Assembly: GCA_964555905.1 (NCBI GenBank)
Contig: CAZKUI010000003.1
Location: 1-36,618 of the forward strand
Direction: 5' to 3'
DNA from: an uncultured Candidatus Bathyarchaeia archaeon
Lineage (GTDB): Archaea; Thermoproteota; Bathyarchaeia; EX4484-135; B24-G1
DNA length: 36,618 nt
The translations under genes were made by a program, and so were the position numbers. Below are positions 8,412-22,708 of this stretch, piece by piece (positions within the stretch are counted from its first letter, which is position 1; every line of letters starts with the position of its first letter). The notes beneath the pieces are model-generated. The model did not search any database. It saw only the letters and a list, made by a program, of their open reading frames with translations, and was not told the DNA's origin.

Positions 8412-9170
8412 ATGCACATGAAATTGGTCCATCTATCCGACATTCACTGCACTTCTTCGCCGATATTTCTAGCTGAAAAGCTGAAAACGGCGATAAAGGA
8501 GATAAACCAGATGAACCCGGAGCTCGTAATCATCTCCGGAGACTTAACACACAACGGCTTCAAGGACGAGATGGAGGACGTGGAGCTCTTCATCGACCAG
8601 ATAGAATGCGACCGCGTCATCGTGACCATGGGGAACCACGACTCCAAATTCACGGGATACATACCGTTCGAGGAGATTTTCGGCCCGGCGACGGGTGTAG
8701 TGGAGGGAAGCGAGTATAAGGTTGTCTACGTCAACACGGCTAGGCCGGACAGGGATGAGGGACGGGTGGGGAGGGACCAGCTGAAGCTCATAAGGAGGGA
8801 GTTCGAGAAGAGCGACAAGTTCGACATACTGGTGATGCACCACCACCTAATTCCGGTGCCCGACACGGGCCTCGAGCAGGCTATCGTAGAGGACGCCGGG
8901 GATGTGCTGAAGGCTATACTGTCCATCCGCCTCGACCTCGTCCTCAGCGGCCATAGGCACAGGCCCTGGAGGTGGAAGCTGAACGGAACCGAGTTCATCT
9001 TCGCAGGTGCGGTCTCAACGAGGAGGTTAAGGGGGTTCTTCAAGAACTCCTACAACGTGATAGAAATCACGGACGAGGGAATCAAACCAACGCTGAAGGT
9101 GGTGGACGGCCCATTCATCGACTTCAACGAACTAACTAGGTCGGTGGGAATATACACATGCGCGATATAA
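8412..9170 (+). CDS. Calcineurin-like metallophosphoesterase
   Basis: Motifs HLSDIH, GDLTHNG, GNHD, MHHH and GHRH in canonical order. 252 aa, too short for Mre11. Confidence 0.8.
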   Translation: MHMKLVHLSDIHCTSSPIFLAEKLKTAIKEINQMNPELVIISGDLTHNGFKDEMEDVELFIDQIECDRVIVTMGNHDSKFTGYIPFEEIFGPATGVVEGSEYKVVYVNTARPDRDEGRVGRDQLKLIRREFEKSDKFDILVMHHHLIPVPDTGLEQAIVEDAGDVLKAILSIRLDLVLSGHRHRPWRWKLNGTEFIFAGAVSTRRLRGFFKNSYNVIEITDEGIKPTLKVVDGPFIDFNELTRSVGIYTCAI

Positions 9171-9186
9171 ACATCCAATTCTGGGT

Positions 9187-10260
9187 TTACCCGTAATTAA
9201 GGCGTTTTTTCAGCTGGATTCCGTGGATTCCATCCCCGTAGTAGTCCTCTAGCCTCTTCACGTCTACGTACCCCCTCTTCCAGTAGAGGTTCCTGGCGGC
9301 CATATTATCAACCCTCACCTCCAGATAGCAATCCCTGGCGCCGCCAAACCAGAATACCCTCTCCATCCTGTCTAGGAGCGCATTGGCCACGCCCCTCCTC
9401 CTGAACCGGCTGGCGACGTCCACCGTGTAGATGTGCCCGATTTTCTCGGCGTCCACTCGTTCCACACAGCCGAGGATGAATCCGGCGATTTCACCGTCTA
9501 CCTCGGCTATGAAGCTCATGAACCTCGGGTTCATCGCGAGGCTGGCTAGGAGCGCCTTTGGGTATGCATCCTGACCGAAGCACTCCCTCTCAATTTCATA
9601 CAGCCTCCCCAAATCCTCGGATAGAGCTGGTCTAATTCTCGTGCTTCCAGTTACATCGTTTATCTCCAGTATGAACGGGTTAAGCCCCAACTTCCTGTAG
9701 ATGTCTGGAACGGCATTCACTGGGTCTCTAGTGCCTAAGTATAGTAGGTGGCTTCCGCATCCGGCCCTGCAGTCTGAGGAGCCGAATCCCGGAACTGGCA
9801 CCTCCGCGTTTAATTCGCTTTTCAGCGATAGGTTAGTGGTGCATTCGGTGTTTGTGGCTGTCTCAGCCGCCACCACCCTCATCACGTAGACGCCTCTACT
9901 AGCGAGTAGGTAATCTATGTGCCACAGCTTCGCCTTGAACCCCCTTAGGTGCCTCATCACCCTACCCGGAAGGCTTGCGGGGCCCATTCCGAGGGCTGAA
10001 CCCGTGTAGGTGTAGAATCCACGCTTTAACCTACACGCGCCCAGACGCCCAACCCTTACGTCTAACTCCCTCGGTAGGTGGATGACCAGCGTGTAGACGC
10101 CCCTCTGGGGTGCACTCTTCACCCCGTTAGGGGAACTCCGAGGTACTGGCTGAACCATAACGCCACCTTCAACTGCTCCTTGGCTGATAAGCGTGGAAGC
10201 CGCATCCTCACTATAGATGGGCGGATGAAGCCCCTCCTCTTCGCCTCCTCTAAAATCCAC
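9187..10260 (-). CDS. Fusion protein: N-terminal DUF123 (GIY-YIG superfamily-like) domain plus C-terminal RimI/Ard1-type GNAT N-acetyltransferase
   Basis: DUF123 signature: GVYTLVIHL...GFYTYTGSA...LWHIDYLL...PGFGSSDCRAGCGSHLLYLG (about aa 53-176). GNAT: IRPALSEDLGRLYEIE...GHIYTVDVASRFRRRGVANALL (R-x-x-G-x-A acetyl-CoA loop)...YLEVRVDNMAARNLYWKRGY (about aa 208-355). The likely true start is the in-frame ATG at 10158 (MVQPVP...), not 10260. Confidence 0.75.
   Translation of the reverse strand: MDFRGGEEEGLHPPIYSEDAASTLISQGAVEGGVMVQPVPRSSPNGVKSAPQRGVYTLVIHLPRELDVRVGRLGACRLKRGFYTYTGSALGMGPASLPGRVMRHLRGFKAKLWHIDYLLASRGVYVMRVVAAETATNTECTTNLSLKSELNAEVPVPGFGSSDCRAGCGSHLLYLGTRDPVNAVPDIYRKLGLNPFILEINDVTGSTRIRPALSEDLGRLYEIERECFGQDAYPKALLASLAMNPRFMSFIAEVDGEIAGFILGCVERVDAEKIGHIYTVDVASRFRRRGVANALLDRMERVFWFGGARDCYLEVRVDNMAARNLYWKRGYVDVKRLEDYYGDGIHGIQLKKRLNYG
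9205..9210 (+). terminator. Oligo-T tract, possible archaeal terminator for the phosphoesterase gene
   Basis: T6 run 35 nt downstream of the stop at 9170. It lies inside the 3' end of the convergent GNAT gene (encodes KK on the other strand), so it may be coincidental. Confidence 0.3.
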
Positions 10261-15076: not shown

Positions 15077-15808
15077 TTGCCCCATGTTCCCTCAGGGGGA
15101 GAAGCCTTGGTCGCCATAGCGGTGGTCGGGCCTAAGGACTCGGGTAAAACGCTCGCCGTTGAGGCGTTAGTTCGCGGGTTCTCCAGCCGTGGATACAGAG
15201 TAGCCACCATTAAGCACATACCGGAGCGGGAGTTCACAATAGACACGCCGGGAAAGGACACGTGGAGGCACGCCGAAGCCGGAGCCGAGATGGTAGCCGC
15301 CGTCTCCCCCAACGAGATAGCCATTATAAGGAGGATGGATACAACCACCCTAAGCATGGACGAGATTTTAAGCCTCGTGGAGAACCACGCGGACATAGTA
15401 ATACTGGAGGGATTTAAGGGTCTGGCTGGCAGGAAGGTGCCGAAGGTTGTTGCCGTTAGGAGCCGGGAGGAAGCCCTAGAGGCCGCGGAGCGTTACAGGC
15501 CCATTCTCGCGTTCGTCGGCCTCGAGCCTATAAGTGGGAAGCTGGCGGCACCCTACGTAGACCTGCCCCGGAACGGCGGGCGGCTCGTGGATATTCTGGA
15601 GCCCGTTGTTTCACGCATGGTGGAGGTTGAGCGGGAGCGCCGAGCCATAACCATACGTGTAGACGGGAGGAAAGTCGCCCTGAGGCGTTTCGTTAGGGAA
15701 ATTGTGAGGAACACGATCTCTGCGATGCTCTCCTCTCTAAAGGGTGTGGAAATCAAGGACGCCGACAGAATCCTAGTGGAGGTGAGGAGGGAGAGCAAAT
15801 CGGCATGA
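15077..15808 (+). CDS. mobB: MobB-like molybdopterin-guanine dinucleotide biosynthesis adapter GTPase with a C-terminal extension
   Basis: P-loop VVGPKDSGKT and MobB-like IKHIPEREF / DTWRHAEAGA. TATA-like AAAATTGTTTATTT at 15064-15077 makes the in-frame TTG at 15107 (then VAIAVVGPKDSGKT) the more likely start. Confidence 0.7.
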   Translation: MPHVPSGGEALVAIAVVGPKDSGKTLAVEALVRGFSSRGYRVATIKHIPEREFTIDTPGKDTWRHAEAGAEMVAAVSPNEIAIIRRMDTTTLSMDEILSLVENHADIVILEGFKGLAGRKVPKVVAVRSREEALEAAERYRPILAFVGLEPISGKLAAPYVDLPRNGGRLVDILEPVVSRMVEVERERRAITIRVDGRKVALRRFVREIVRNTISAMLSSLKGVEIKDADRILVEVRRESKSA

Positions 15809-17358
15809 AATCCTCGTATCTACTCCTAGTCGCGATTCTCCTGTTGACGCGCCTCCCCGCATTATACGGCATCCACTCCACCCCGCACGGACGGGCATCC
15901 GAGACCTACACCATGTGGACTGTAAACCTCGGGGAGGAGCACGTCATAGAAATGCAGGCGATACCGGACGTGAATGGAGACGGGGTTAAGGACCTCTTCG
16001 TGGCCTCGAGGGTGGAGAACGACAGCTACCTTTACATCATCAGCGGTCGCAACGGCTCCATCCTAAGGGAGAGCGGCCCCCTAGGGTGTAAGATTAGGGG
16101 AGCCGTCTGGGTCGGGGGGTGCGCGGCGGTCTCCGTCGTGGAGGAGATAATAGTGTACGGCCCCCAGTTTCAACAACTATATACGCTGCCTAGGTTTGTT
16201 TCTCCAACCGCTAAGCTTCAGCCCCTCCGAGGCAACCTAATCTCTCTGAGCGTGGCTGGGGAGGGTGTCTACCAGCTGGAGGCATTCCGCCCGTTGGATG
16301 GCACCCGCCTATGGGGTGTTGAGTTCGCGGGTGTTAGAGACTGCTCCTTTCTGGCTACTTCGGGGGGGTTGGTGGCTTGCGCCTTCGCCAACGAATCCGG
16401 TTGGTACGTATCCGTATTGGACATGTGGGGGCGTAGACTGGCTTTAATCCCGATTGAAGGGTCTAACATGACCGACCGTCTAACCCTAAAGTTGTACGAG
16501 GGGGCGTGCTTCCTATACACCCTAGTGGGTGACTCCGGCGTCTTCGTGGGTTGCCTCAGCCTTGAGGGGGAGATTTGGAGGGTTGCGGTGGAGAGGCACC
16601 CGGAGAACGTAGGCTTTACGATTGGGGACGCTAACATGGACGGCGTGAGGGATGTAGTCTGCGTCTACGACGGAAATGTCACCCTCCTCAGCGGGAAGAA
16701 CGGGGAGAAGCTGTACTCCACGGGGGTGAACACCCTCTACGTGGCGGACTTAGGAGCCACCAGCGAGGATGGGAGGGAGGTGGCGGTGCTAGACGCGGAA
16801 GGCTACATCCACCTACTCGCCTTCAGCCTCCTAAAAGCCACGGAATGTTGGGTGCGAGGCCCCTTCAGCTTAATGGAGATGTTAGGGGATGTAGACGGGG
16901 ATGGGTTTAGGGATATAGTGCTTTCTCGCGGCGGCTTTATTGCGTGTTATTGGGGGCACTACGACGGGGAGCCCCCGGTGTTGGAGTTGGTGGAGCCGGA
17001 GAACGCCACCTCCACATCCGCTCCATACGTAACGTTTAGGGTTAAGGCGTGGGATGGGCAGAGTGGGGTGCACCGAGTGGTCTTCGTCGTAGACGGGGTG
17101 GAACATGAAGGCGCATACAACCCCACGCACAACGTCTACGAAGTCGGCTTAACCGTGACGGACGGAACACACTGGTGGTACGCCAAGGCCATAGACAGGG
17201 CGGGCCACGAGGCGCAAACCCCGATGGCCCGCGTTACCGTGAACACGAGCCTCCTAGGCTGGCCCGGGTGGGCTGACGACATCCTATTCCTAACGGTTGC
17301 AGCCGCCGTTCTGCTGGTCGCCCTCTACACCACGCTCCGCGAGTGGGAAACCCTCTAA
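15805..17358 (+). CDS. Secreted, C-terminally membrane-anchored FG-GAP/beta-propeller repeat protein with an Ig-like domain
   Basis: Signal-like N-terminus. Repeated Ca-binding FG-GAP cores DVNGDGVKDL, DANMDGVRDVV, DVDGDGFRDIV. Many N-x-S/T sequons. C-terminal TM ILFLTVAAAVLLVALY. The ATG overlaps the mobB stop (ATGA, 15805-15808). Confidence 0.7.
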   Translation: MKSSYLLLVAILLLTRLPALYGIHSTPHGRASETYTMWTVNLGEEHVIEMQAIPDVNGDGVKDLFVASRVENDSYLYIISGRNGSILRESGPLGCKIRGAVWVGGCAAVSVVEEIIVYGPQFQQLYTLPRFVSPTAKLQPLRGNLISLSVAGEGVYQLEAFRPLDGTRLWGVEFAGVRDCSFLATSGGLVACAFANESGWYVSVLDMWGRRLALIPIEGSNMTDRLTLKLYEGACFLYTLVGDSGVFVGCLSLEGEIWRVAVERHPENVGFTIGDANMDGVRDVVCVYDGNVTLLSGKNGEKLYSTGVNTLYVADLGATSEDGREVAVLDAEGYIHLLAFSLLKATECWVRGPFSLMEMLGDVDGDGFRDIVLSRGGFIACYWGHYDGEPPVLELVEPENATSTSAPYVTFRVKAWDGQSGVHRVVFVVDGVEHEGAYNPTHNVYEVGLTVTDGTHWWYAKAIDRAGHEAQTPMARVTVNTSLLGWPGWADDILFLTVAAAVLLVALYTTLREWETL

Positions 17359-17359
17359 T

Positions 17360-18547
17360 TCACTCCTCCTTCTGCGGGTTTATGCTTGAGAACCACTCCA
17401 TGAGTACATCCTCGCTCAACCCGCCGGAGTCCCTCAGAAGCGCCGCCTCCACCTCCTCCACGAACTCCCTAGAAAGCCCATCCGGCAGGGTGACATTCTC
17501 GTCTATCAGGTCTATGGGGAGGGGTAGACCAGTAGCCGGATTATGAACGCTCACGAGGTATGGGAGAACTACGCCTAAATCCACGCCAGCGGGAACCTCA
17601 AGGCAGAAGGGCGGGGCCTCGCAGCAGCGGATGAAATATCTCATTAACGTCGGGAGGTCTTCTGGCGCGCACGCTAGGTTCTTCCTAAAAATCACCTTCT
17701 CATAGTCGATAACCCAGCGATTCCATAGGTAATCTAGGCTATACTCTTCATACTCTTCATATACCCTCCTCAGGATGGAGTAGCGTAGGCAGTCAAGCCA
17801 AGTGGCGCCTTCGCCCAGCAGGTCCTCATAGGAAAACCAAGTCCTCGGGGGCATGAGTAGGGTTAGTATCATCTTATCATTTTGGCCTACGCAATGCTTC
17901 TCTCCTAAGTTTTTGAGTATCCAACCGTCTATAGCGGCTATTCTCACCCTCTTCGCTACTCCGACGCATCTCCCCGACTTAGCCAGCGTTGTGGTGAGGT
18001 CTCGCACACGCTTCACTAAATCCTCACCCCTACTGAACCCTTCAACCCCCACCATCCTGTCCATGATTTCGCTGCATCTCGCCCTGAATCCGTAGAAGTT
18101 TCCGTCTATGAGTACTAGGTCTACATCCTCCTCCTTCAGGCATCGGAGGGCGGCTTCCCTCTCAAGCTTCACGCAGAGGAGGCTCAGGATTATGTTCGTT
18201 ATTCTGGGTTCCCCAACTTGGTCCTCCGTCAGCCACTCGCACTTGTAGTTCTCTTCTACCAGCTGGTCGCCCTCAAATACCATGTATCCGGCGGCGTAGA
18301 TTCCAGCCCTTATGCCAGCCCTCTCCCTCGCCGGCAGCCACGACCCGTCTACGCTGGCCACCCTAAGCTCCCCGCACTCCCCCTCTATGGGCCTGAACTT
18401 CAGTATGCCCTTCAGCCTTCGGATGGCATCCACCTGGCGCTTAATCCTCTCCCTGCACCTCTTAGCCGCCTCCTCCGCGTGCGCGAAGAACTGATGCTGG
18501 AGGACGATGGGCAGCTTAGACCATTCGGACGCCTCCTCCACAACCAT
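17360..18547 (-). CDS. nurA: NurA-domain nuclease (HerA partner)
   Basis: NurA-like motifs VASVDGS, LEREAAL, LVLIDGNF, VGVAKRV. The in-frame ATG at 18547..18545 shares one base with the HerA stop TGA (18549..18547) and is preceded by GGGGAGGGTGG. The ORF is also open to ATG 18607. Confidence 0.7.
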   Translation of the reverse strand: MVVEEASEWSKLPIVLQHQFFAHAEEAAKRCRERIKRQVDAIRRLKGILKFRPIEGECGELRVASVDGSWLPARERAGIRAGIYAAGYMVFEGDQLVEENYKCEWLTEDQVGEPRITNIILSLLCVKLEREAALRCLKEEDVDLVLIDGNFYGFRARCSEIMDRMVGVEGFSRGEDLVKRVRDLTTTLAKSGRCVGVAKRVRIAAIDGWILKNLGEKHCVGQNDKMILTLLMPPRTWFSYEDLLGEGATWLDCLRYSILRRVYEEYEEYSLDYLWNRWVIDYEKVIFRKNLACAPEDLPTLMRYFIRCCEAPPFCLEVPAGVDLGVVLPYLVSVHNPATGLPLPIDLIDENVTLPDGLSREFVEEVEAALLRDSGGLSEDVLMEWFSSINPQKEE

Positions 18548-20025
18548 CAGCCACCCTCCCCAGGCCTGAAGGATATCAGTAGGGGGACGGGGGCGGGATT
18601 CATGCACCCTAGGAAGTAGAAGTGGCCCGTTGGGAGCTTGGTGAGGAAGTCCACGTCCACCCCTTGGTTGCCGAGGAGGTTTTCAGCCTCCATCCTATCT
18701 AGGGGGTGAATGCGGCCTATGAGGAGCGTGTTGAGGTTACGCCTCACAGCCGCGTTTATGCCTATCTCACCGGCCATACCCTGAGAGATGAGCGTGATGC
18801 AAAGCTTGTACGCCCTCCCGATGGCGCACAAATCCTTAATGACCTCCGTGGTTTCAACCTCTAAGCCTGAGGGCCTGTAGGGGCAGTACTGCGGGGCCTC
18901 ATCCACGATGAGGGCTAGGTTCAGCTCCCGCTTCTCCCTCTCTATGAGCCTGCGTAGATACCTAGCAATTGTGAGGAATAGGGAGAGCTTCGTCTCCTTC
19001 TCGCCGCCGCTGAGGTCTATCACGCAGACCCGGCTCTCCCGAACCCTCTTAAGTAGGTCTTCAGGCGTCATCTCCCCCTTGATTACGCTTAGGTCCTCCT
19101 CGGTGAGCCTCTGGAGGCCCCTCCTAAACTGCTTCTGGTATCGGGCGACCTCCCCCTCCCTCACCTCGCCCCCCTCCACCATCTCCTCAAACACCTCATC
19201 GCAAAGCTCACCCATGCCGCGCCGGAACTCCCCAATGCTCTTTAGGTGGCGCCTCCACGGCTTCTCGTATATGATGTCGGTGAGGGCGAGGTAGGGCTTG
19301 CTTGAACGCCTATACGCGCCCCCATACCGGAAGTACTCCATCTTTGAGGCGAGGTACTCCACTATGGCGGCGTTGTCCAGAAGTAGGTCTCCGAGGTGCA
19401 CCACCTTGTCCCTGAAGGGTGGATGCGACGCGTAGTCGTATCCCTTCCAGTCGAAGATGATGACGTTATACCCCGTCTTCAGTAGCATGGGTACCACGCG
19501 GTACTTAGCCAAGTAGCTCTTCCCGCACCCGGTGACCCCGAATATGCCTATGTGCTGCGGTATGAATTTCGGGTCTACGGGGACGAGCCAGCCCTCCATA
19601 TCCTTATAATGCCCGATGAAGGGGATTTCACCATCCCAGTCGATCTCCTTCTTGAGGTACTCCATTGGGTTGTCTTCTTCTTCAAATATGTAGACGGGTG
19701 AACCCGGGGCTATCACCATCTTGTTCTGGGTGAATCCGTCCGTCACGTCTGCGATGACGGAGAGCCTAAAGTTGAAGTGTTGCTTTGCGTCGGATGGGCT
19801 CCTACCCCGCCTGACATACGCCAAACTGGGCCTGTAGACGCCTGAAACCTTCAGGTTTTCATCCACCCCATAGCCCTTTCTGCAGACGGCTAAAACCCTG
19901 TTCCCGCACTTATTCTCTATGAGAACCAAATCCTCTATTTTAACGAGGCTCTCCTCGCCCTCAGCCAGTATAACCCTAGCGTCCGTCTCGGTGGAGCCGC
20001 TGGCTATTACACCAATCTTTCGCAT
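18547..20025 (-). CDS. herA: HerA-family (FtsK/HerA superfamily) hexameric ATPase/helicase
   Basis: 492 aa. N-terminal barrel-like region (IGVIASGSTETDARVIL...VLIENKCGNRVLAV), Walker A GIFGVTGCGKS, Walker B LALIVDEAPQY, C-terminal GHFYFLG. Confidence 0.85.
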   Translation of the reverse strand: MRKIGVIASGSTETDARVILAEGEESLVKIEDLVLIENKCGNRVLAVCRKGYGVDENLKVSGVYRPSLAYVRRGRSPSDAKQHFNFRLSVIADVTDGFTQNKMVIAPGSPVYIFEEEDNPMEYLKKEIDWDGEIPFIGHYKDMEGWLVPVDPKFIPQHIGIFGVTGCGKSYLAKYRVVPMLLKTGYNVIIFDWKGYDYASHPPFRDKVVHLGDLLLDNAAIVEYLASKMEYFRYGGAYRRSSKPYLALTDIIYEKPWRRHLKSIGEFRRGMGELCDEVFEEMVEGGEVREGEVARYQKQFRRGLQRLTEEDLSVIKGEMTPEDLLKRVRESRVCVIDLSGGEKETKLSLFLTIARYLRRLIEREKRELNLALIVDEAPQYCPYRPSGLEVETTEVIKDLCAIGRAYKLCITLISQGMAGEIGINAAVRRNLNTLLIGRIHPLDRMEAENLLGNQGVDVDFLTKLPTGHFYFLGCMNPAPVPLLISFRPGEGG

Positions 20026-20159
20026 GCTCTCACGCCTAAGATTATGTGGTTACACCAAACAAATTTCCCTTGCGGTATCGCCGAATAGGAGATAAAGGGC
20101 GTCTACGCCGTCTCGGTTCACGCCCAAAAACGAACTCGTCAGCGCCGTGCCCAGTTACC

Positions 20160-21188
20160 TTAATAAAAGTAGGTGATCACCTTCGGCTCCCTCAGCCTCA
20201 GGTACCTCCCGTCTACGCTGGCCATGCACACCCCATTGAGGGGGCACCTCCCACGGCATCTGTAGCTTGAGTTCTCTTGGAGGGTGCAGGAGCGCTCCTT
20301 GCATTCGTTCTCCCCGCATGGGGGTTGCACGTACTTGCAGCAGCTCCTCCCTAGGTGCCAGAACGTTTGGTCCACTCGGGTTGCGTCCCAGTTTAGGTTT
20401 TCTCCGACGATTTTGTAGGCTTCTAGGCACGCTTTCCTCACCTCCATGTGCTCCCCCTCGGAGACGAACCTCCCGTAGAGGAGCTTTCTCCGCAGACCCT
20501 CGTCTACGACCTCGACCATGCCCGTTCTGAGGGCGACGCGCTGAAGGTGGTAATCAACCCCAACGGTTATGTTCCACGGGTCCCTCGGCGTGAACAACCC
20601 CTCCATCTGGAGTAGCATCGCAAAGACCATGGACTTCTTGGCTAGGGGGTCGCTGTACGCCCTAAATTCCCTCAGCCTGTCCACTAAGCCGCCTGACCCC
20701 CCAACATAACCCCCGCACTCCTCTAGGAGCTTCCCCACGCACCCACCATAGCGAAGCCGCAGAACCTCGGCGGCGTCCCTGAGCAGCGCCACCCTCTCCA
20801 TAGGCCTCCTCGGCGGCGTCCCACCGACGAACCAACCCATGAACTCGCTTAGGGTGAGGTTTGCCATACGCTCCGCCCCGAAGGCGTCCGGATTGTTCTC
20901 GGCTACGACCCTCATGGCGTGGTATAGATATTGGCTCCCCCTGTATTGCTTGTCATCCACGAACCCCCGCATGCCTCTGGTGTCGTGGTTTATCGCCATG
21001 TAGTAGAAGAGGAGGCGTAGGGCTGGCTCCCTGCCTCCCAACCTGCTCACATCCACGGTCTTAATATAGCGTATGCGGATTCCCCTAACGGCGCTGGCGA
21101 CTCCTCGGCATAATTCCTCACGAACTTCTACGCGTCCATGCATACCGGGAGTAGCGTGTGGGGCTAGTCTAATAAGCATATTCATCAC
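20160..21188 (-). CDS. HhH-GPD-superfamily-like (EndoIII / DUF2419-QNG1-like) putative glycosylase with a double Cys-cluster C-terminus
   Basis: VGVDYHLQRVALRTGMV resembles the EndoIII VDTHVxRVxxRLG helix. It is followed by FWHLGRSCC and C-x6-C-x4-C-x4-C, then C-x9-C-x3-C-x5-C (20226-20342). Minus-strand TATA-like GCAAAAATTCTTACC lies about 25-30 nt upstream of the ATG. The CDS is solid; the function is tentative. Confidence 0.6.
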   Translation of the reverse strand: MMNMLIRLAPHATPGMHGRVEVREELCRGVASAVRGIRIRYIKTVDVSRLGGREPALRLLFYYMAINHDTRGMRGFVDDKQYRGSQYLYHAMRVVAENNPDAFGAERMANLTLSEFMGWFVGGTPPRRPMERVALLRDAAEVLRLRYGGCVGKLLEECGGYVGGSGGLVDRLREFRAYSDPLAKKSMVFAMLLQMEGLFTPRDPWNITVGVDYHLQRVALRTGMVEVVDEGLRRKLLYGRFVSEGEHMEVRKACLEAYKIVGENLNWDATRVDQTFWHLGRSCCKYVQPPCGENECKERSCTLQENSSYRCRGRCPLNGVCMASVDGRYLRLREPKVITYFY

Positions 21189-21283: not shown

Positions 21284-22708
21284 ATGAATCACCACGAAAA
21301 AAGCTTTGTAGTAGCATCTCTATCCGTTTTCCTCGTATCCCTCGCCACCGCATCCCCCATGGTTGTGCGTGCGGGTGGCGTAGGCGGGGGTATGGACGGT
21401 GCACCATGCGTCTACCTGCTGGTAAACTCCACCATCTACCCACCGCTGAAACCTTATTTGGAGAGGTGGGTGGATGATGTGGAATTAGAGGGCTTTAACG
21501 TTCTCTTAAGGGTAGTAGATGATGGAGACGTTCAGGAGATTAGAAGGCTGTTACGGGAAACCCCGAACCTAGTTGGAGCCTTACTGGTGGGGGAACTCCC
21601 AACTCCGTGGTTTGAGGCTCAGGAGCTGTGGGGCGAGTACGCCACGTACACCAACTACCCATGCCCCCTATACTACATGGACTTAGACGGCGAGTGGGGG
21701 GACAGAAACGGGAATGGACTCCTTGATTCCCACGATGGAGATGTAAAGCCCGAAATCTGGATCGGCATACTCAAACCACCCGCCGACCCATTAGATGAGC
21801 AGGTTGAGCTACTGAAGGAGTACTTCAACAGAAACCACCTCTACCGAGTTGGGGGCTACGCCCTCCCAAACAGGGCTATCCTCTACGTAGACGACGAGTT
21901 CATCAACTACTCGGGATACGAAAGTCAAGCGATGGCTGAGGCGTTTTCGGATATCACCGTGGTGACCGAGCCAGAGGGCACCAACGCAGAGGATTATATT
22001 CGGCGTATATTGCAGGGCTGGTGCCTAATACAAGTGGATGCGCACGGAGACCCCCACCAGCAACTCTTCCATTCCAGCGGATGGTCACGCGTAAGTTCCG
22101 AGGATATTCAGAGGGCGAACCCAAAGGCACCTTTCTTCGTAATTTACTCGTGCAGCTCGGGGAGGTATGCTGAGCTGGACTACATAGCAGGGTGGTACGT
22201 TTTCTCCGACTACGGGCTGGCGGCTGTGGCGTCTACAAAGGACTGGGCTGGGTTACTAATGGCCGAAGAGTTCTACCGCCACCTAAACCAGAGCGTGGGG
22301 GAGGCTGTTCTGAGGTGGGCTCAGTATGCGGCGGTGCGGCTGGAGCCGAAGTACTACCACGGCATAGTAATCATCGGTGACCCCCTCCTTAGGCTCGTGG
22401 AGATGGGCGTGGACACGGATGGAGACGCCCTAACCGACGTCTACGAAATGAGCGTTGGGCTGAACCCCAACAGCCGGGACACGGATGGGGACGGCGTCTC
22501 AGACTACAAGGAGGCTCTATCTGCGGAACTACCCAAAACAAGAGCGAACCCCGCGGGTGGAGGGGCACGGTGGCATCAAATCTTCCTCATGGGGCTACCC
22601 GCCCACTATACATTGACGCTCTTTAGCCTCGCAACTCTACTAATCACCGCCGCTCCCTTAATCATCCGCTCATCCCGAGAGAAGCATCCATGGTGTAGAC
22701 ATCGATGA
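21284..22708 (+). CDS. Secreted membrane-anchored clan-CD-like (gingipain/C25-like) cysteine peptidase homolog with thrombospondin-type-3 Ca-binding repeats
   Basis: Signal peptide (SLSVFLVSLATASP). A His-Gly after a hydrophobic strand (LIQVDAHGDP) and a Ser-Cys after a hydrophobic strand (FFVIYSCSSG) form a caspase-fold dyad pattern. DTDGDALTDVYE and DTDGDGVSDYKE repeats. C-terminal TM. TATA GGTTAAATAGG about 30 nt upstream. Confidence 0.55.
   Translation: MNHHEKSFVVASLSVFLVSLATASPMVVRAGGVGGGMDGAPCVYLLVNSTIYPPLKPYLERWVDDVELEGFNVLLRVVDDGDVQEIRRLLRETPNLVGALLVGELPTPWFEAQELWGEYATYTNYPCPLYYMDLDGEWGDRNGNGLLDSHDGDVKPEIWIGILKPPADPLDEQVELLKEYFNRNHLYRVGGYALPNRAILYVDDEFINYSGYESQAMAEAFSDITVVTEPEGTNAEDYIRRILQGWCLIQVDAHGDPHQQLFHSSGWSRVSSEDIQRANPKAPFFVIYSCSSGRYAELDYIAGWYVFSDYGLAAVASTKDWAGLLMAEEFYRHLNQSVGEAVLRWAQYAAVRLEPKYYHGIVIIGDPLLRLVEMGVDTDGDALTDVYEMSVGLNPNSRDTDGDGVSDYKEALSAELPKTRANPAGGGARWHQIFLMGLPAHYTLTLFSLATLLITAAPLIIRSSREKHPWCRHR

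What the first reader, a model, noticed from the sequence alone, without database searches (positions are those of the whole stretch)
17360..21188. Stand-alone, translationally coupled HerA-NurA pair behind an Fe-S glycosylase-like gene, with no Mre11/Rad50
Seen: on the minus strand a HerA-type ATPase (Walker A GVTGCGKS, Walker B LALIVDEAPQY) is followed by a NurA-type nuclease (VASVDGS, LVLIDGNF, VGVAKR). The HerA stop TGA (18549..18547) and an in-frame NurA ATG (18547..18545) share one base (TGATG) and are preceded by GGGGAGGGTGG, so the two are very likely co-translated. Established: the canonical archaeal end-resection genes cluster as herA-mre11-rad50-nurA. No Mre11- or Rad50-like ORF occurs anywhere in this window. 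Instead an HhH-GPD-like gene with a double Cys cluster sits 134 bp upstream on the same strand. The trio is bracketed by genes for two membrane-anchored secreted proteins, not by replication or repair genes. Also established: HerA-family ATPases partnered with nuclease or Sir2 effectors act as anti-phage systems in bacteria. Inference: this may be a paralogous, Mre11/Rad50-independent HerA-NurA machine, possibly coupled to a base-recognising partner, serving specialised repair or defence against modified foreign DNA. The C-terminal NurA motif reads GLPLPIDLIDE where, from memory only, a His-containing motif is usual.
Basis: partly seen in the sequence, partly recalled or inferred. Interest (0 to 1): 0.7.

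Follow-up and report, generated by a model that had tools for sequence, protein, structure and literature searches.

The report
Ordinary HerA-NurA operon, unusual glycosidase neighbour
The helicase-nuclease gene pair is the standard, stand-alone HerA-NurA operon of a large group of archaea. The gene upstream is a separately transcribed enzyme related to the queuine-salvage enzyme Qng1, and its relatives elsewhere repeatedly sit next to DNA replication and repair genes.

Summary
A 492-aa HerA-like ATPase and a 395-aa NurA-like nuclease overlap in TGATG. A Cys-rich gene (G3) lies 134 bp upstream. The window has no Mre11 or Rad50.

The pair is not special to this locus. Its family occurs in at least 121 species-level genomes of Bathyarchaeia, Nitrososphaeria and Brockarchaeota. 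It is nearly always a tightly coupled herA-nurA pair among housekeeping genes, and never next to mre11-rad50. Seven Nitrososphaerales-type loci have a short SMC/Rad50-like gene upstream. This looks like the lineage's usual DNA-end-processing pair, not a defence module.

G3 is not a classical HhH-GPD/Fe-S DNA glycosylase. Its predicted fold matches Qng1/DUF2419 (TM about 0.7), and the Qng1 catalytic Lys/Asp, base-binding Asp/Trp and C-terminal aromatic tail are kept. It adds an 8-Cys insertion.

G3 is absent from all 85 other loci of this pair, including the closest relative with identical flanking genes. A T5 tract and a conserved promoter-like block separate it from herA.

In other Bathyarchaeia, G3 homologues sit in a tight operon with a second, paralogous nurA-herA pair, or directly beside polB1. 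A functional link between G3 and DNA enzymes is therefore plausible but unproven.

The parts
18547..20025 (-). herA1: 492-aa HerA-like (FtsK-HerA superfamily) ATPase. Walker A is G166-x-G-K169-S170 and Walker B is D375-E376.
   Evidence: Pfam DUF87 at 56 bits. The family profile hits solved HerA structures 8xau, 9c1m, 4d2i and 9x1l. More than 319 homologue clusters were found, and relatives occur in 121 species-level genomes.
17360..18547 (-). nurA1: 395-aa NurA-like RNase-H-fold nuclease. Invariant residues are D67, E129, D148 and D346/D349, plus an invariant C-terminal NPQKEE tail.
   Evidence: Pfam NurA at 23.8 bits against a gathering score of 21. Alignment A1 gives the invariant residues. 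The AF2 model has pLDDT 87.6, and its top Foldseek hits are Sulfolobus, Thermococcus and Pyrococcus NurA.
18545..18561 (-). herA1/nurA1 junction: purine-rich GGGGAGGGTGG followed by the overlapping stop and start, TGATG.
   Evidence: Read directly from the sequence. The two genes overlap or lie 10 nt or less apart in 47 of 52 evaluable genomes, often after a GGAGG-like run.
20026..20159 (-). 134-bp spacer between G3 and herA1. It holds a T5 tract (20126..20130) and a conserved block ACCGCAAGGGAAATTT (20061..20076), about 40-50 nt before the herA1 ATG.
   Evidence: Sequence. The same block lies upstream of herA1 in the relatives L007/L008, which lack G3. The readings as terminator and promoter are inferences.
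20160..21188 (-). G3: Qng1/DUF2419-like N-glycosidase. The ORF is 342 aa and the likely start is Met16 at 21143. Conserved residues are K184/K185, D212, D273 and W277, and the C-terminal tail ends ...ITYFY.
   Evidence: Pfam Q_salvage at 21.4 bits. The AF2 model has pLDDT 90.4, and Foldseek places Qng1 on top with E 7e-12 and TM 0.66-0.71. Residue roles are taken from PMC9881137.
20226..20342 (-). Cys-rich insertion of G3 (residues 283-321): CC-x6-C-x4-C-x4-C-x9-C-x3-C-x5-C. It is a putative Fe-S or Zn site and is absent from Qng1.
   Evidence: Five Cys are invariant and three nearly invariant in alignment A3. In the wider family, 4-8 Cys occur in the last 75 residues. Metal binding was not tested.
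15805..17358 (+). Flanking gene: FG-GAP/Big_7 surface protein, convergent with nurA1.
   Evidence: Pfam. The same neighbour is present in the relative L007.
21284..22708 (+). Flanking gene: Peptidase_C25-like membrane-anchored protein, divergent from G3.
   Evidence: Pfam. In the relative L007 this gene directly abuts herA1 across a 219-bp gap, with no G3 between them.

Best explanation
The region holds two separate units.

(1) herA1-nurA1 is a translationally coupled two-gene operon. It encodes the Bathyarchaeia/Nitrososphaeria-type HerA-NurA machine. By analogy with the solved complexes, a ring ATPase threads double-stranded DNA into a NurA dimer. NurA then cuts by two-metal catalysis, using D67, E129, D148 and an acidic fourth ligand (D346 or D349). 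It most likely serves chromosomal DNA-end processing for recombination and replication repair. Any Mre11/Rad50-type partners would be encoded elsewhere.

(2) G3 is a separately transcribed Qng1-like N-glycosidase. D212 and K184/K185 are the catalytic pair, D273/W277 should bind a guanine-like or 7-deazaguanine-like base, and the C-terminal Tyr closes the pocket. It carries an extra Cys-rich metal site.

The adjacency of G3 to herA1 is a recent, species-level event. However, the G3 family as a whole tends to sit beside DNA replication and repair genes.

Shown: gene identities, folds, conserved residues, distribution and synteny. Inferred: the mechanism, the promoter and terminator, and the substrates.
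For: The pair:
- Family hits and folds.
- More than 319 HerA clusters and 117 NurA clusters, at 40-55% identity across three archaeal classes.
- Relatives in 121 species-level genomes.
- NurA1 was found in 76 of 85 loci, directly downstream of HerA1 in 63.
- The junction overlaps or is 10 nt or less in 47 of 52 evaluable genomes.
- Recurrent neighbours are PriS+GINS51, a RecJ-like DHH protein, EF-1a/S7, aminoacyl-tRNA synthetases and, in 7 loci, an SMC/Rad50-like ATPase of about 580 aa with a CPLCG hook.
- NCBI names the homologues 'DNA double-strand break repair nuclease NurA'.
- A thermophilic thaumarchaeon is reported to encode Mre11, Rad50 and a HerA-NurA pair (PMC5797428).

Independence of G3:
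- G3 is in 0 of 85 HerA1 loci.
- The closest relative, L007, has C25 | herA1-nurA1 | FG-GAP-MobB without G3.
- A T5 tract and a conserved block lie upstream of herA1.

Identity of G3.

G3 next to DNA genes.
Against: - Similarity of HerA1 to canonical HerA models is low (24 bits to NF040937). Orthology to the Sulfolobus or Thermococcus resection pair is therefore unproven.
- A second pair, HerA2-NurA2, in other Bathyarchaeia is closer to mainstream HerA (54-67 bits). It could be the 'canonical' pair.
- The rest of this genome could not be searched. The presence of mre11, rad50 or a second pair is unknown.
- G3 neighbours two different HerA-NurA pairs in two clades. That is unlikely under random placement and argues against pure coincidence.
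- The promoter and terminator are sequence inferences only.
Confidence: 0.6

Rival explanations
1. G3 is a working partner of HerA-NurA machines. A Qng1-like base-excising enzyme would recognise a modified or damaged guanine-type base, either in DNA or in nucleotides released by the nuclease. It would thereby create substrates for, or clean up after, HerA-NurA. The window's G3-herA1-nurA1 would then be a genuine three-part unit.
For: - G3 homologues lie in a tight nurA2-herA2-orf86-G3 cluster, with gaps of about 10-30 nt. The clade has 14 distinct G3 sequences at 59-87% identity: every locus that extends upstream has orf86, and HerA2 and NurA2 are seen wherever the contig reaches that far.
- The window shows a second, independent adjacency, to a different pair.
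- Other clades place G3 directly after, or convergent with, polB1.
- A GIY-YIG nuclease fused to a G3-like domain exists in a Chloroflexota MAG.
- G3 lacks the Qng1 hairpin inserted in the HhH motif and adds a Cys cluster, as Fe-S DNA glycosylases do.
Against: - G3 is in 0 of 85 HerA1-NurA1 loci outside this species, and the closest relative lacks it.
- A 134-bp spacer with a T5 tract and a conserved herA1 upstream block separates the units.
- The fold is much closer to Qng1 (TM about 0.7) than to DNA glycosylases (TM 0.36-0.44).
- G3 keeps the Qng1 C-terminal tail, which closes the active site around a mononucleotide.
- One clade links G3 to the transporter QueT instead.
- Clade A loci share wider synteny, so their cluster may persist by descent alone.
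Confidence: 0.2
2. The window's pair is a specialised paralogue and not the main end-resection machine. The canonical job would be done by the HerA2-NurA2-type pair, or by a herA-mre11-rad50-nurA locus elsewhere in the genome.
For: - Two paralogous pairs exist in Bathyarchaeia. HerA1 and HerA2 are 24% identical, and NurA1 and NurA2 give no BLAST hit to each other.
- HerA2 scores 54-67 bits with NCBIfam HerA models and has a weak HAS-barrel hit. HerA1 scores only 24 bits.
- NurA1 replaces the catalytic His with Asp.
Against: - Family 1 is by far the more widely found pair here, with 121 species-level genomes across three classes.
- It sits beside replication and repair genes, including PriS, GINS, a RecJ-like protein and an SMC/Rad50-like ATPase.
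- Family 2 was seen only in one G3-linked clade. Its wider distribution could not be searched.
- NurA1's best structural matches are the canonical archaeal NurAs.
Confidence: 0.2
3. The locus is an anti-phage defence module: a HerA ATPase with a nuclease effector and a sensor of modified bases, aimed at modified foreign DNA.
For: - HerA1's best PADLOC hit is mad8, at 58 bits.
- A HerA-like/NurA-like defence complex, TdpAB, appears among the structural matches, though below the canonical NurAs.
- One relative, L011, lies about 6 kb from a Piwi gene and a DUF1156 gene.
Against: - NurA1 and G3 give no PADLOC hit.
- The distribution looks vertical, with one pair per locus in more than 100 genomes and housekeeping neighbours.
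- There are no relatives in viral contigs.
- No mobile-element genes lie nearby in the window.
- The composition of the region is unremarkable.
Confidence: 0.05

Closest known systems
Archaeal HerA-NurA DNA end-resection complex (Sulfolobus solfataricus 4D2I/2YGK, Pyrococcus furiosus 3TAZ, Thermococcus kodakarensis 9X1L-P)
   Same: - A HerA-type ATPase of about 490 aa, with the DUF87 core and Walker motifs.
- A NurA-type RNase-H-fold nuclease with the D-E-D catalytic residues and a conserved C-terminal tail.
- The two genes are adjacent and co-translated.
- The best structural matches of NurA1 are these proteins.
   Different: - Sequence similarity is very low (HerA_Thermprot 24 bits).
- The genes are not in a herA-mre11-rad50-nurA operon. 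The order is herA then nurA, with overlap.
- The fourth metal ligand is Asp, not His411.
- The N-terminal HAS-barrel is not detected by Pfam.
Bacterial stand-alone nurA-herA operons (Deinococcus radiodurans, Thermus thermophilus; TmNurA 1ZUP)
   Same: - A two-gene helicase-nuclease operon; in D. radiodurans nurA and herA are handled together as one operon (PMC9960219).
- Thermotoga NurA has an acidic residue in place of His411 (PMC3300031).
   Different: - The gene order is reversed.
- No closer sequence relationship was detected.
- The host is archaeal, and the family is conserved across Bathyarchaeia, Nitrososphaeria and Brockarchaeota.
Qng1/DUF2419 queuosine-5'-monophosphate N-glycosidase (queuine salvage; 7U07, 7U91, 7UGK)
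   Same: - The G3 fold matches at TM 0.66-0.71.
- The HhH Lys and Asp are conserved (K199/D231 in Qng1, K184-185/D212 in G3).
- The base-binding Asp...Trp is conserved (D298/W302 in Qng1, D273/W277 in G3).
- The beta2-beta3 hairpin and the C-terminal tail ending in an aromatic Tyr are kept.
- Homologues in one clade lie near the transporter QueT.
   Different: - Identity is only about 19%, and the Pfam score is below the gathering score.
- G3 has an 8-Cys insertion before the tail.
- It lacks the beta4-beta5 insertion in the HhH motif.
- The host is an archaeon, where queuosine is not expected in tRNA (own knowledge).
- Its neighbours are polB1 or HerA-NurA genes, not tRNA-modification genes.
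Fe-S helix-hairpin-helix DNA glycosylases (EndoIII/Nth, MutY, Mig) and AGOG
   Same: - The same structural superfamily and the same two catalytic residues.
- A Cys cluster near the C-terminus.
- Some G3 homologues carry faint AGOG or HhH-GPD Pfam hits.
   Different: - Structural similarity is weak (TM 0.36-0.44).
- The Cys spacing differs from C-x6-C-x2-C-x5-C (spacing from own knowledge).
- The Qng1-type elements that block the DNA cleft are largely kept.
HerA-based anti-phage systems (SIR2-HerA, DUF4297-HerA, TdpAB, MADS mad8)
   Same: - A HerA-family ATPase paired with a nuclease.
- TdpAB is a HerA-like/NurA-like complex and appears among the fold matches.
- There is a weak PADLOC mad8 hit.
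   Different: - No effector or system-level match.
- Housekeeping context and a broad, vertical-looking distribution.
- Canonical NurAs match better than TdpB.

Membership tests
HerA (FtsK-HerA superfamily, Pfam DUF87/PF01935) | Central RecA-like ATPase domain with Walker A and Walker B motifs | tested here: met
   PF01935 at 56.3 bits against a gathering score of 23.2, over residues 137-350. G166, G168, K169, S170, D375 and E376 are invariant in 33 homologues.
HerA (FtsK-HerA superfamily, Pfam DUF87/PF01935) | Sequence similarity to experimentally solved HerA proteins over most of the length | tested here: met
   The family profile hits 8xau (36 bits), 9c1m (29.8), Sulfolobus HerA 4d2i (25.9 bits; residues 137-464 against 129-451) and Thermococcus HerA 9x1l_A (22.8). 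All hits are weak.
HerA (FtsK-HerA superfamily, Pfam DUF87/PF01935) | N-terminal HAS-barrel domain | tested here: inconclusive
   There is no PF09378 hit. HerA1 aligns from residue 1 with HerA2 (24% identity over 462 columns). HerA2 has a sub-threshold HAS-barrel hit at 19.4 bits. No structure model was made.
HerA (FtsK-HerA superfamily, Pfam DUF87/PF01935) | Hexameric ring that translocates dsDNA and binds a NurA dimer | not testable with these tools
   Needs biochemistry or multimer modelling.
NurA (Pfam PF09376) | Pfam NurA domain above the gathering score | tested here: met
   23.8 bits against a gathering score of 21 for the window protein. Most homologues carry PF09376.
NurA (Pfam PF09376) | RNase-H/PIWI-like fold like solved NurA structures | tested here: met
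   The AF2 model has pLDDT 87.6. The top Foldseek hits are 2ygk (E 1.9e-12, TM 0.52/0.63), 9x1m_G and 3taz, ahead of EndoV and Argonaute.
NurA (Pfam PF09376) | Catalytic Asp-Glu-Asp (PfNurA D51, E105, D126) | tested here: met
   D67, E129 and D148 are invariant. They align with the VDGS / LE / DG motifs of Thermococcus NurA. Residue roles are from PMC3300031.
NurA (Pfam PF09376) | Fourth metal ligand His (PfNurA His411) | tested here: not met
   The C-terminal motif is NPATGLPxPxDLxDE, with D346 and D349 invariant and no conserved His. This position is also acidic in TmNurA and Argonaute, so it does not exclude membership.
Canonical archaeal herA-mre11-rad50-nurA operon | mre11 and rad50 encoded between or next to herA and nurA | tested here: not met
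   None were found in the window. None were found in the 85 related loci by clustering, Pfam on recurrent neighbours and motif scans. Only a short SMC/Rad50-like gene lies upstream of herA1 in 7 loci.
Qng1/DUF2419 (Pfam PF10343) for the upstream gene | Pfam Q_salvage above the gathering score | tested here: not met
   21.4 bits against a gathering score of 25 for the window protein. Several relatives do pass (for example P0303 at 40 bits).
Qng1/DUF2419 (Pfam PF10343) for the upstream gene | Qng1 fold | tested here: met
   Model pLDDT 90.4. Eleven Qng1 chains come out on top, with E 7e-12 to 1.5e-10 and TM 0.64-0.71.
Qng1/DUF2419 (Pfam PF10343) for the upstream gene | HhH-motif Lys and Asp (K199, D231), base-binding Asp/Trp (D298, W302) and a C-terminal aromatic carboxylate tail | tested here: met
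   K184/K185, D212 and W277 are invariant and D273 is nearly invariant. The tail is ...T-Y-(Y/F)-Y. Residue roles are from PMC9881137.
Qng1/DUF2419 (Pfam PF10343) for the upstream gene | Hydrolysis of queuosine-5'-monophosphate | not testable with these tools
   Needs an enzyme assay. The Cys insertion and the missing beta4-beta5 hairpin may change the substrate.
Fe-S HhH-GPD DNA glycosylases (EndoIII/MutY type) | HhH-GPD domain (PF00730) and a close fold match | tested here: not met
   There is no PF00730 hit for the window protein. Foldseek TM is only 0.36-0.44, with E 8e-4 or weaker.
Fe-S HhH-GPD DNA glycosylases (EndoIII/MutY type) | [4Fe-4S] cluster bound by four Cys | not testable with these tools
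   Eight conserved Cys are present, but metal content needs spectroscopy. The spacing differs from the EndoIII loop (own knowledge).
HerA-based anti-phage defence systems | Match of the partner or effector genes to a known system, and a defence-island or patchy distribution | tested here: not met
   PADLOC finds nothing for NurA1 or G3, and HerA1 gives only a 58-bit mad8 hit. The neighbours are housekeeping genes and the phyletic spread is broad. Nothing was found in viral contigs.

The most novel reading that the evidence does not exclude
The Cys-rich Qng1-like family (G3) would be a previously unrecognised base-excising partner of DNA-processing machines. It would recognise 7-deazaguanine-type or damaged guanine bases, either in DNA or in the 5'-mononucleotides released by NurA or by PolB1 proofreading. 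It would act with HerA-NurA pairs as a three-part repair, nucleotide-sanitising or anti-modified-DNA system. The operon form would be nurA2-herA2-orf86-G3, and the window's G3-herA1-nurA1 would be a second, independently assembled instance.
Probability: 0.2. Interest if true: 0.7.

Novelty: new member of a known kind. Interest (0 to 1): 0.4.

Why it matters
For the pair itself, little changes. It documents that a large archaeal lineage (Bathyarchaeia, Nitrososphaeria, Brockarchaeota) carries a divergent, stand-alone, translationally coupled HerA-NurA operon. Its fourth catalytic ligand is acidic. In Nitrososphaerales-type genomes it sits behind a miniature SMC/Rad50-like partner. This is useful for annotation and for anyone studying end resection outside the thermophile models.

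The more valuable lead is a by-product. An uncharacterised family of Cys-rich Qng1-like glycosidases is large, with 278 representatives at 50% identity at E <= 1e-30. In Bathyarchaeia it is repeatedly wired to polB1 or to a second nurA-herA operon. If the link is functional, it would connect 7-deazaguanine-type or damaged-guanine base excision with replication and end-processing machinery. It would also give a testable role to a family that is now annotated only as 'hypothetical protein'.

Tried and rejected
- Mre11-Rad50 hidden between herA1 and nurA1. In the few loci where the two genes are 1-6 kb apart (L050, L057, L059, L064, L071), the intervening ORFs lack Rad50 and Mre11 motifs. From their N-termini they look like CoA-binding acyl-CoA-synthetase-like and other metabolic genes. 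This was read by eye and not scanned.
- The recurrent herA1-nurA1-317aa-850aa arrangement as mre11-rad50. Pfam shows a DHH/DHHA1 (RecJ-like) protein and a CBM96/Ig surface protein.
- The 252-aa Metallophos gene at 8412..9170 as Mre11. Its NCBIfam hits are to phosphodiesterase families at low scores.
- The short SMC-like gene upstream of herA1 as bona fide Rad50. Its best NCBIfam scores are arcadin-4 (96 bits) and ASRP (64 bits), against Rad50 at 53 bits, and all are far below the cut-offs. I therefore call it only SMC/Rad50-like, with a CPLCG hook.
- G3 as an HhH-GPD, AGOG or EndoIII-type DNA glycosylase. Rejected in favour of Qng1-like on fold and residues.
- An early conclusion that G3 never neighbours HerA/NurA. 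This was overturned by L093 and the metagenome scan.
- G3 as a tiny Bathyarchaeia-only family of 33 clusters. This was overturned by the exhaustive profile search.
- Viral or proviral origin. No relatives of G3 or HerA1 occur in viral contigs.
- tRNA, Rfam and bacterial promoter/terminator scans of the region gave nothing useful. The sigma-70 scan does not apply to archaea.
- Searching the same genome for a canonical locus. This was not possible, because only the window and +/-10 kb of related loci are available.

Full report
**1. Observation**

Three minus-strand ORFs lie at 17360..18547, 18547..20025 and 20160..21188.

- The HerA stop TGA (18549..18547) and the NurA ATG (18547..18545) share one base. 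GGGGAGGGTGG (18551..18561) precedes them.
- The alignment of NurA homologues supports this ATG as the start, not the upstream GTG at 18607.
- Pfam gives the HerA central domain (DUF87) at 56 bits and NurA at 23.8 bits (gathering score 21).
- The upstream gene gives only a sub-threshold Q_salvage/DUF2419 hit and no HhH-GPD hit.
- The flanks are a FG-GAP/Big_7 protein and a Peptidase_C25-like protein.
- The rest of the window is ordinary archaeal chromosome. It encodes an Lhr-type helicase, PEP synthase, ComA, Kae1, an archaeal-type SerRS and a RecJ/GAN nuclease. There is no Mre11 or Rad50, no tRNA or Rfam hit and no compositional anomaly.
- The named best homologues are from Bathyarchaeia MAGs. 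The source is therefore probably a member of that class. This is an inference.

**2. The HerA-NurA pair is a widespread family whose normal state is stand-alone**

- The word-indexed search found more than 319 HerA clusters and 117 NurA clusters. They are 40-55% identical and full-length. Their names point to Bathyarchaeia, Nitrososphaerales/Thaumarchaeota, Caldarchaeales/Aigarchaeota and Brockarchaeota. NCBI calls the NurA homologues 'DNA double-strand break repair nuclease NurA'.
- A scan of one genome per species found relatives in 121 genomes, and 80 loci were fetched.
- Across 85 related loci (1.37 Mb), tblastn finds HerA1 in 85 and NurA1 in 76. It finds the upstream gene (G3) in none.
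- NurA1 is the next gene after HerA1 in 63 loci.
- The two genes overlap or lie 10 nt or less apart in 47 of 52 evaluable genomes. The junction is often ATGA or TGATG after a purine-rich run. Translational coupling is thus a family trait.
- No locus has mre11-rad50 beside or between the pair.
- Recurrent neighbours are housekeeping genes, several of them for DNA replication or repair:
  - PriS plus GINS51 upstream (about 9 loci);
  - a 329-aa RecJ-like DHH protein after nurA1 (10 loci);
  - EF-1a/S7 and aminoacyl-tRNA synthetases.
- In 7 Nitrososphaerales-type loci, an ATPase gene of about 580 aa lies just upstream of herA1, overlapping it by 4 nt in several (L013, L024, L048). It has Walker A, a central coiled coil with CPLCG, a signature motif and Walker B. 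Its scores with arcadin-4, ASRP and Rad50 models are all far below the cut-offs. I call it SMC/Rad50-like.
- Neither HerA1 nor G3 has relatives in viral contigs.
- PADLOC gives only a 58-bit mad8 hit for HerA1 and nothing for NurA1.
[quoted passage not shown] I did not verify that this pair belongs to the same family.
- In *Deinococcus radiodurans*, nurA and herA are handled together as an operon (PMC9960219).
- Reviews state that the four-gene operon is a feature of thermophilic archaea (PMC7776575).

**3. Anatomy and likely mechanism of the pair**

- HerA1 keeps invariant Walker A and Walker B residues and many invariant C-terminal residues.
- The HerA1 family profile hits solved HerAs weakly. 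The hit to *Sulfolobus* HerA spans most of the protein.
- The NurA1 model (pLDDT 87.6) matches *Sulfolobus*, *Thermococcus* and *Pyrococcus* NurA best. TdpAB, EndoV and Argonaute follow.
- Invariant D67, E129 and D148 correspond to the *Pyrococcus furiosus* (Pf) NurA residues D51, E105 and D126.
- The C-terminal motif is NPATGLPxPxDLxDE, with invariant D346 and D349 and no His. That position is Glu in *Thermotoga* NurA and Asp in Argonaute. The change is therefore a known variant and is compatible with two-metal catalysis.
- The extreme C-terminus, NPQKEE, is invariant. In Pf NurA the conserved C-terminus of one subunit points into the partner's active site.
- The mechanism is an inference from the solved complexes: a HerA ring feeds duplex DNA into a NurA dimer, which digests it.

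**4. The upstream gene (G3)**

- The model has pLDDT 90.4. It matches Qng1/DUF2419 with E 7e-12 and TM 0.66-0.71. MutY, EndoIII, Mig and AGOG reach only TM 0.36-0.44.
- The family profile also finds Qng1 by sequence (E 1e-5).
- Residues that PMC9881137 defines for Qng1 are conserved in G3:

| Qng1 element | Residues in Qng1 | Residues in G3 |
|---|---|---|
| HhH Lys | K199 | K184/K185 |
| HhH Asp | D231 | D212 |
| Base-binding pair | D298/W302 | D273/W277 |
| C-terminal tail ending in an aromatic carboxylate | IFY | ...TY(Y/F)Y |

- G3 differs in two ways. It has a deletion where Qng1 has the beta4-beta5 hairpin. It also has an 8-Cys insertion at residues 283-321, with 5 Cys invariant and 3 nearly invariant.
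- The exhaustive profile search shows that the family is large. It returns 1077 representatives at E <= 1e-3 and 278 at E <= 1e-30.
- Most of the 147 best matches end in an aromatic residue plus Tyr, and most have 4-8 Cys near the C-terminus.
- Members that carry a name are called 'hypothetical protein'. One Chloroflexota MAG encodes a fusion of a GIY-YIG nuclease and a G3-like domain.

**5. Is the trio a unit?**

Against a unit:
- G3 is absent from all 85 other HerA1 loci.
- The closest relative (HerA 78% identical) has the same order, C25 | herA1-nurA1 | FG-GAP-MobB. Only 219 bp lie between C25 and herA1, and there is no G3.
- The arrangement seen in the window recurs only in contigs that are 98-99% identical, that is, the same species.
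- The 134-bp spacer holds a T5 tract (20126..20130), which is how archaeal terminators usually look.
- The spacer also holds a block, ACCGCAAGGGAAATTT (20061..20076). The same block is conserved upstream of herA1 in the relative that lacks G3. This suggests that herA1 has its own promoter. Both readings are inferences.

For some link, G3 homologues were found in 40 further loci that fall into 7 clades:

| G3 clade | Genomic context |
|---|---|
| A (14 distinct sequences, 59-87% identical) | nurA2-herA2-orf86-G3, with gaps of about 10-30 nt |
| Three clades (L112/113, L114/115, L123) | G3 directly after polB1 on the same strand |
| C | QueT...CofE-G3, convergent with polB1 |
| D | TldD \| G3-LonC-EndA |
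| Window clade | G3-herA1-nurA1 |

- polB1 is identified by NF004417 at more than 1000 bits, above its cut-off.
- Pair 2 is a different paralogue. HerA2 (615-634 aa) is 24% identical to HerA1, and NurA2 gives no BLAST hit to NurA1.
- HerA2 is closer to mainstream HerAs. It scores 54-67 bits with both the double-strand-break and the anti-phage NCBIfam models, and up to 120 bits with a PADLOC HerA model.
- G3 thus sits beside two different HerA-NurA pairs in two clades, and beside the replicative polymerase gene in four others.
- With about 2000 genes per genome, a second independent HerA/NurA adjacency among the few other clades has a chance of roughly 1-2%. This is my rough estimate, not a formal test. 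Clade A loci share wider synteny, so they count as a single event.
- This makes a DNA-related role for G3 likely. It leaves open a functional tie to HerA-NurA machines, but it does not show that the window's three genes work together.

**6. Verdict**

- The pair is a new member of a known kind. It is the lineage-typical, stand-alone HerA-NurA operon, and it is probably housekeeping.
- The defence reading is unsupported.
- Which of the two pairs is the 'canonical' resection machine could not be determined. Whether this genome encodes mre11, rad50 or pair 2 could not be determined either.

Noticed in passing
L093:2540-6996 (also L097, L099, L100, L102-L107, L109-L111, L119, L003/L108): A conserved, tightly packed cluster nurA2 (418-432 aa) - herA2 (615-634 aa, with an acidic low-complexity tail) - orf86 (small, helical) - G3 homologue in one Bathyarchaeia clade. 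This is a second HerA-NurA paralogue pair, and it is closer to mainstream and anti-phage HerA models than the window's pair.
   Followed up: partly
L112-L115 and L123 (G3 at about 10001; polB1 immediately upstream); L092, L096, L120 (polB1 convergent): G3 homologues lie directly beside the PolB1-type replicative DNA polymerase gene in four separate G3 clades. This may be the ancestral context of the family.
   Followed up: partly
L013:8247-9986, L023:8172-9929, L034:8261-9976 (also L015, L024, L048, L072): A miniature SMC/Rad50-like ATPase of about 580 aa lies immediately upstream of herA1 in Nitrososphaerales-type genomes, overlapping it by 4 nt in several (L013, L024, L048). It has Walker A, a coiled coil with a central CPLCG hook-like motif, a signature motif and Walker B. 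No mre11 lies beside it.
   Followed up: partly
P0276 (427 aa; MBU0491131.1, Chloroflexota MAG); also P0326, P0357, P0303, P0361: Fusion proteins carry a G3-like domain. The N-terminal part is a GIY-YIG nuclease in P0276, a beta-lactamase-fold domain in P0326 and an FGE-sulfatase domain in P0357. Several others have unknown N-terminal domains of 370-460 aa.
   Followed up: partly
window 17360..17380 (C-terminus of NurA1) and alignment A1: The last residues of NurA1, NPQKEE, are invariant across 30 homologues that are only 34-64% identical to the window protein. In Pyrococcus furiosus NurA the C-terminus reaches into the partner subunit's active site.
   Followed up: no
L092:5310-5810 and L120:7742-8269: A QueT-type transporter gene (7-deazapurine precursor transporter family) lies just upstream of G3 homologues in one clade. 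This fits a 7-deazaguanine-type substrate.
   Followed up: no
L085:12687-13676 and nine similar loci (L077-L091 group): A short (329 aa) RecJ-like DHH/DHHA1 protein is encoded directly after nurA1 in Brockarchaeota-like genomes. PriS and GINS51 genes lie just upstream of herA1 in Geocrenenecus-type genomes (for example L054 and L074).
   Followed up: no
L011:1156-3615 and L011:1-407: In one relative, the herA1-nurA1 pair lies about 6 kb from a Piwi (prokaryotic Argonaute) gene and a DUF1156 gene, with several small unknown ORFs between them. This is the only defence-like neighbourhood seen.
   Followed up: no
window 9187..10260 (-): One ORF combines a DUF123 domain with a GNAT acetyltransferase domain. 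The combination is unusual, and I did not look into it.
   Followed up: no
window 21143..21188: The first 15 codons of the G3 ORF (from the GTG at 21188) have no counterpart in homologues and have very low model confidence. The true start is probably the ATG at 21143.
   Followed up: partly
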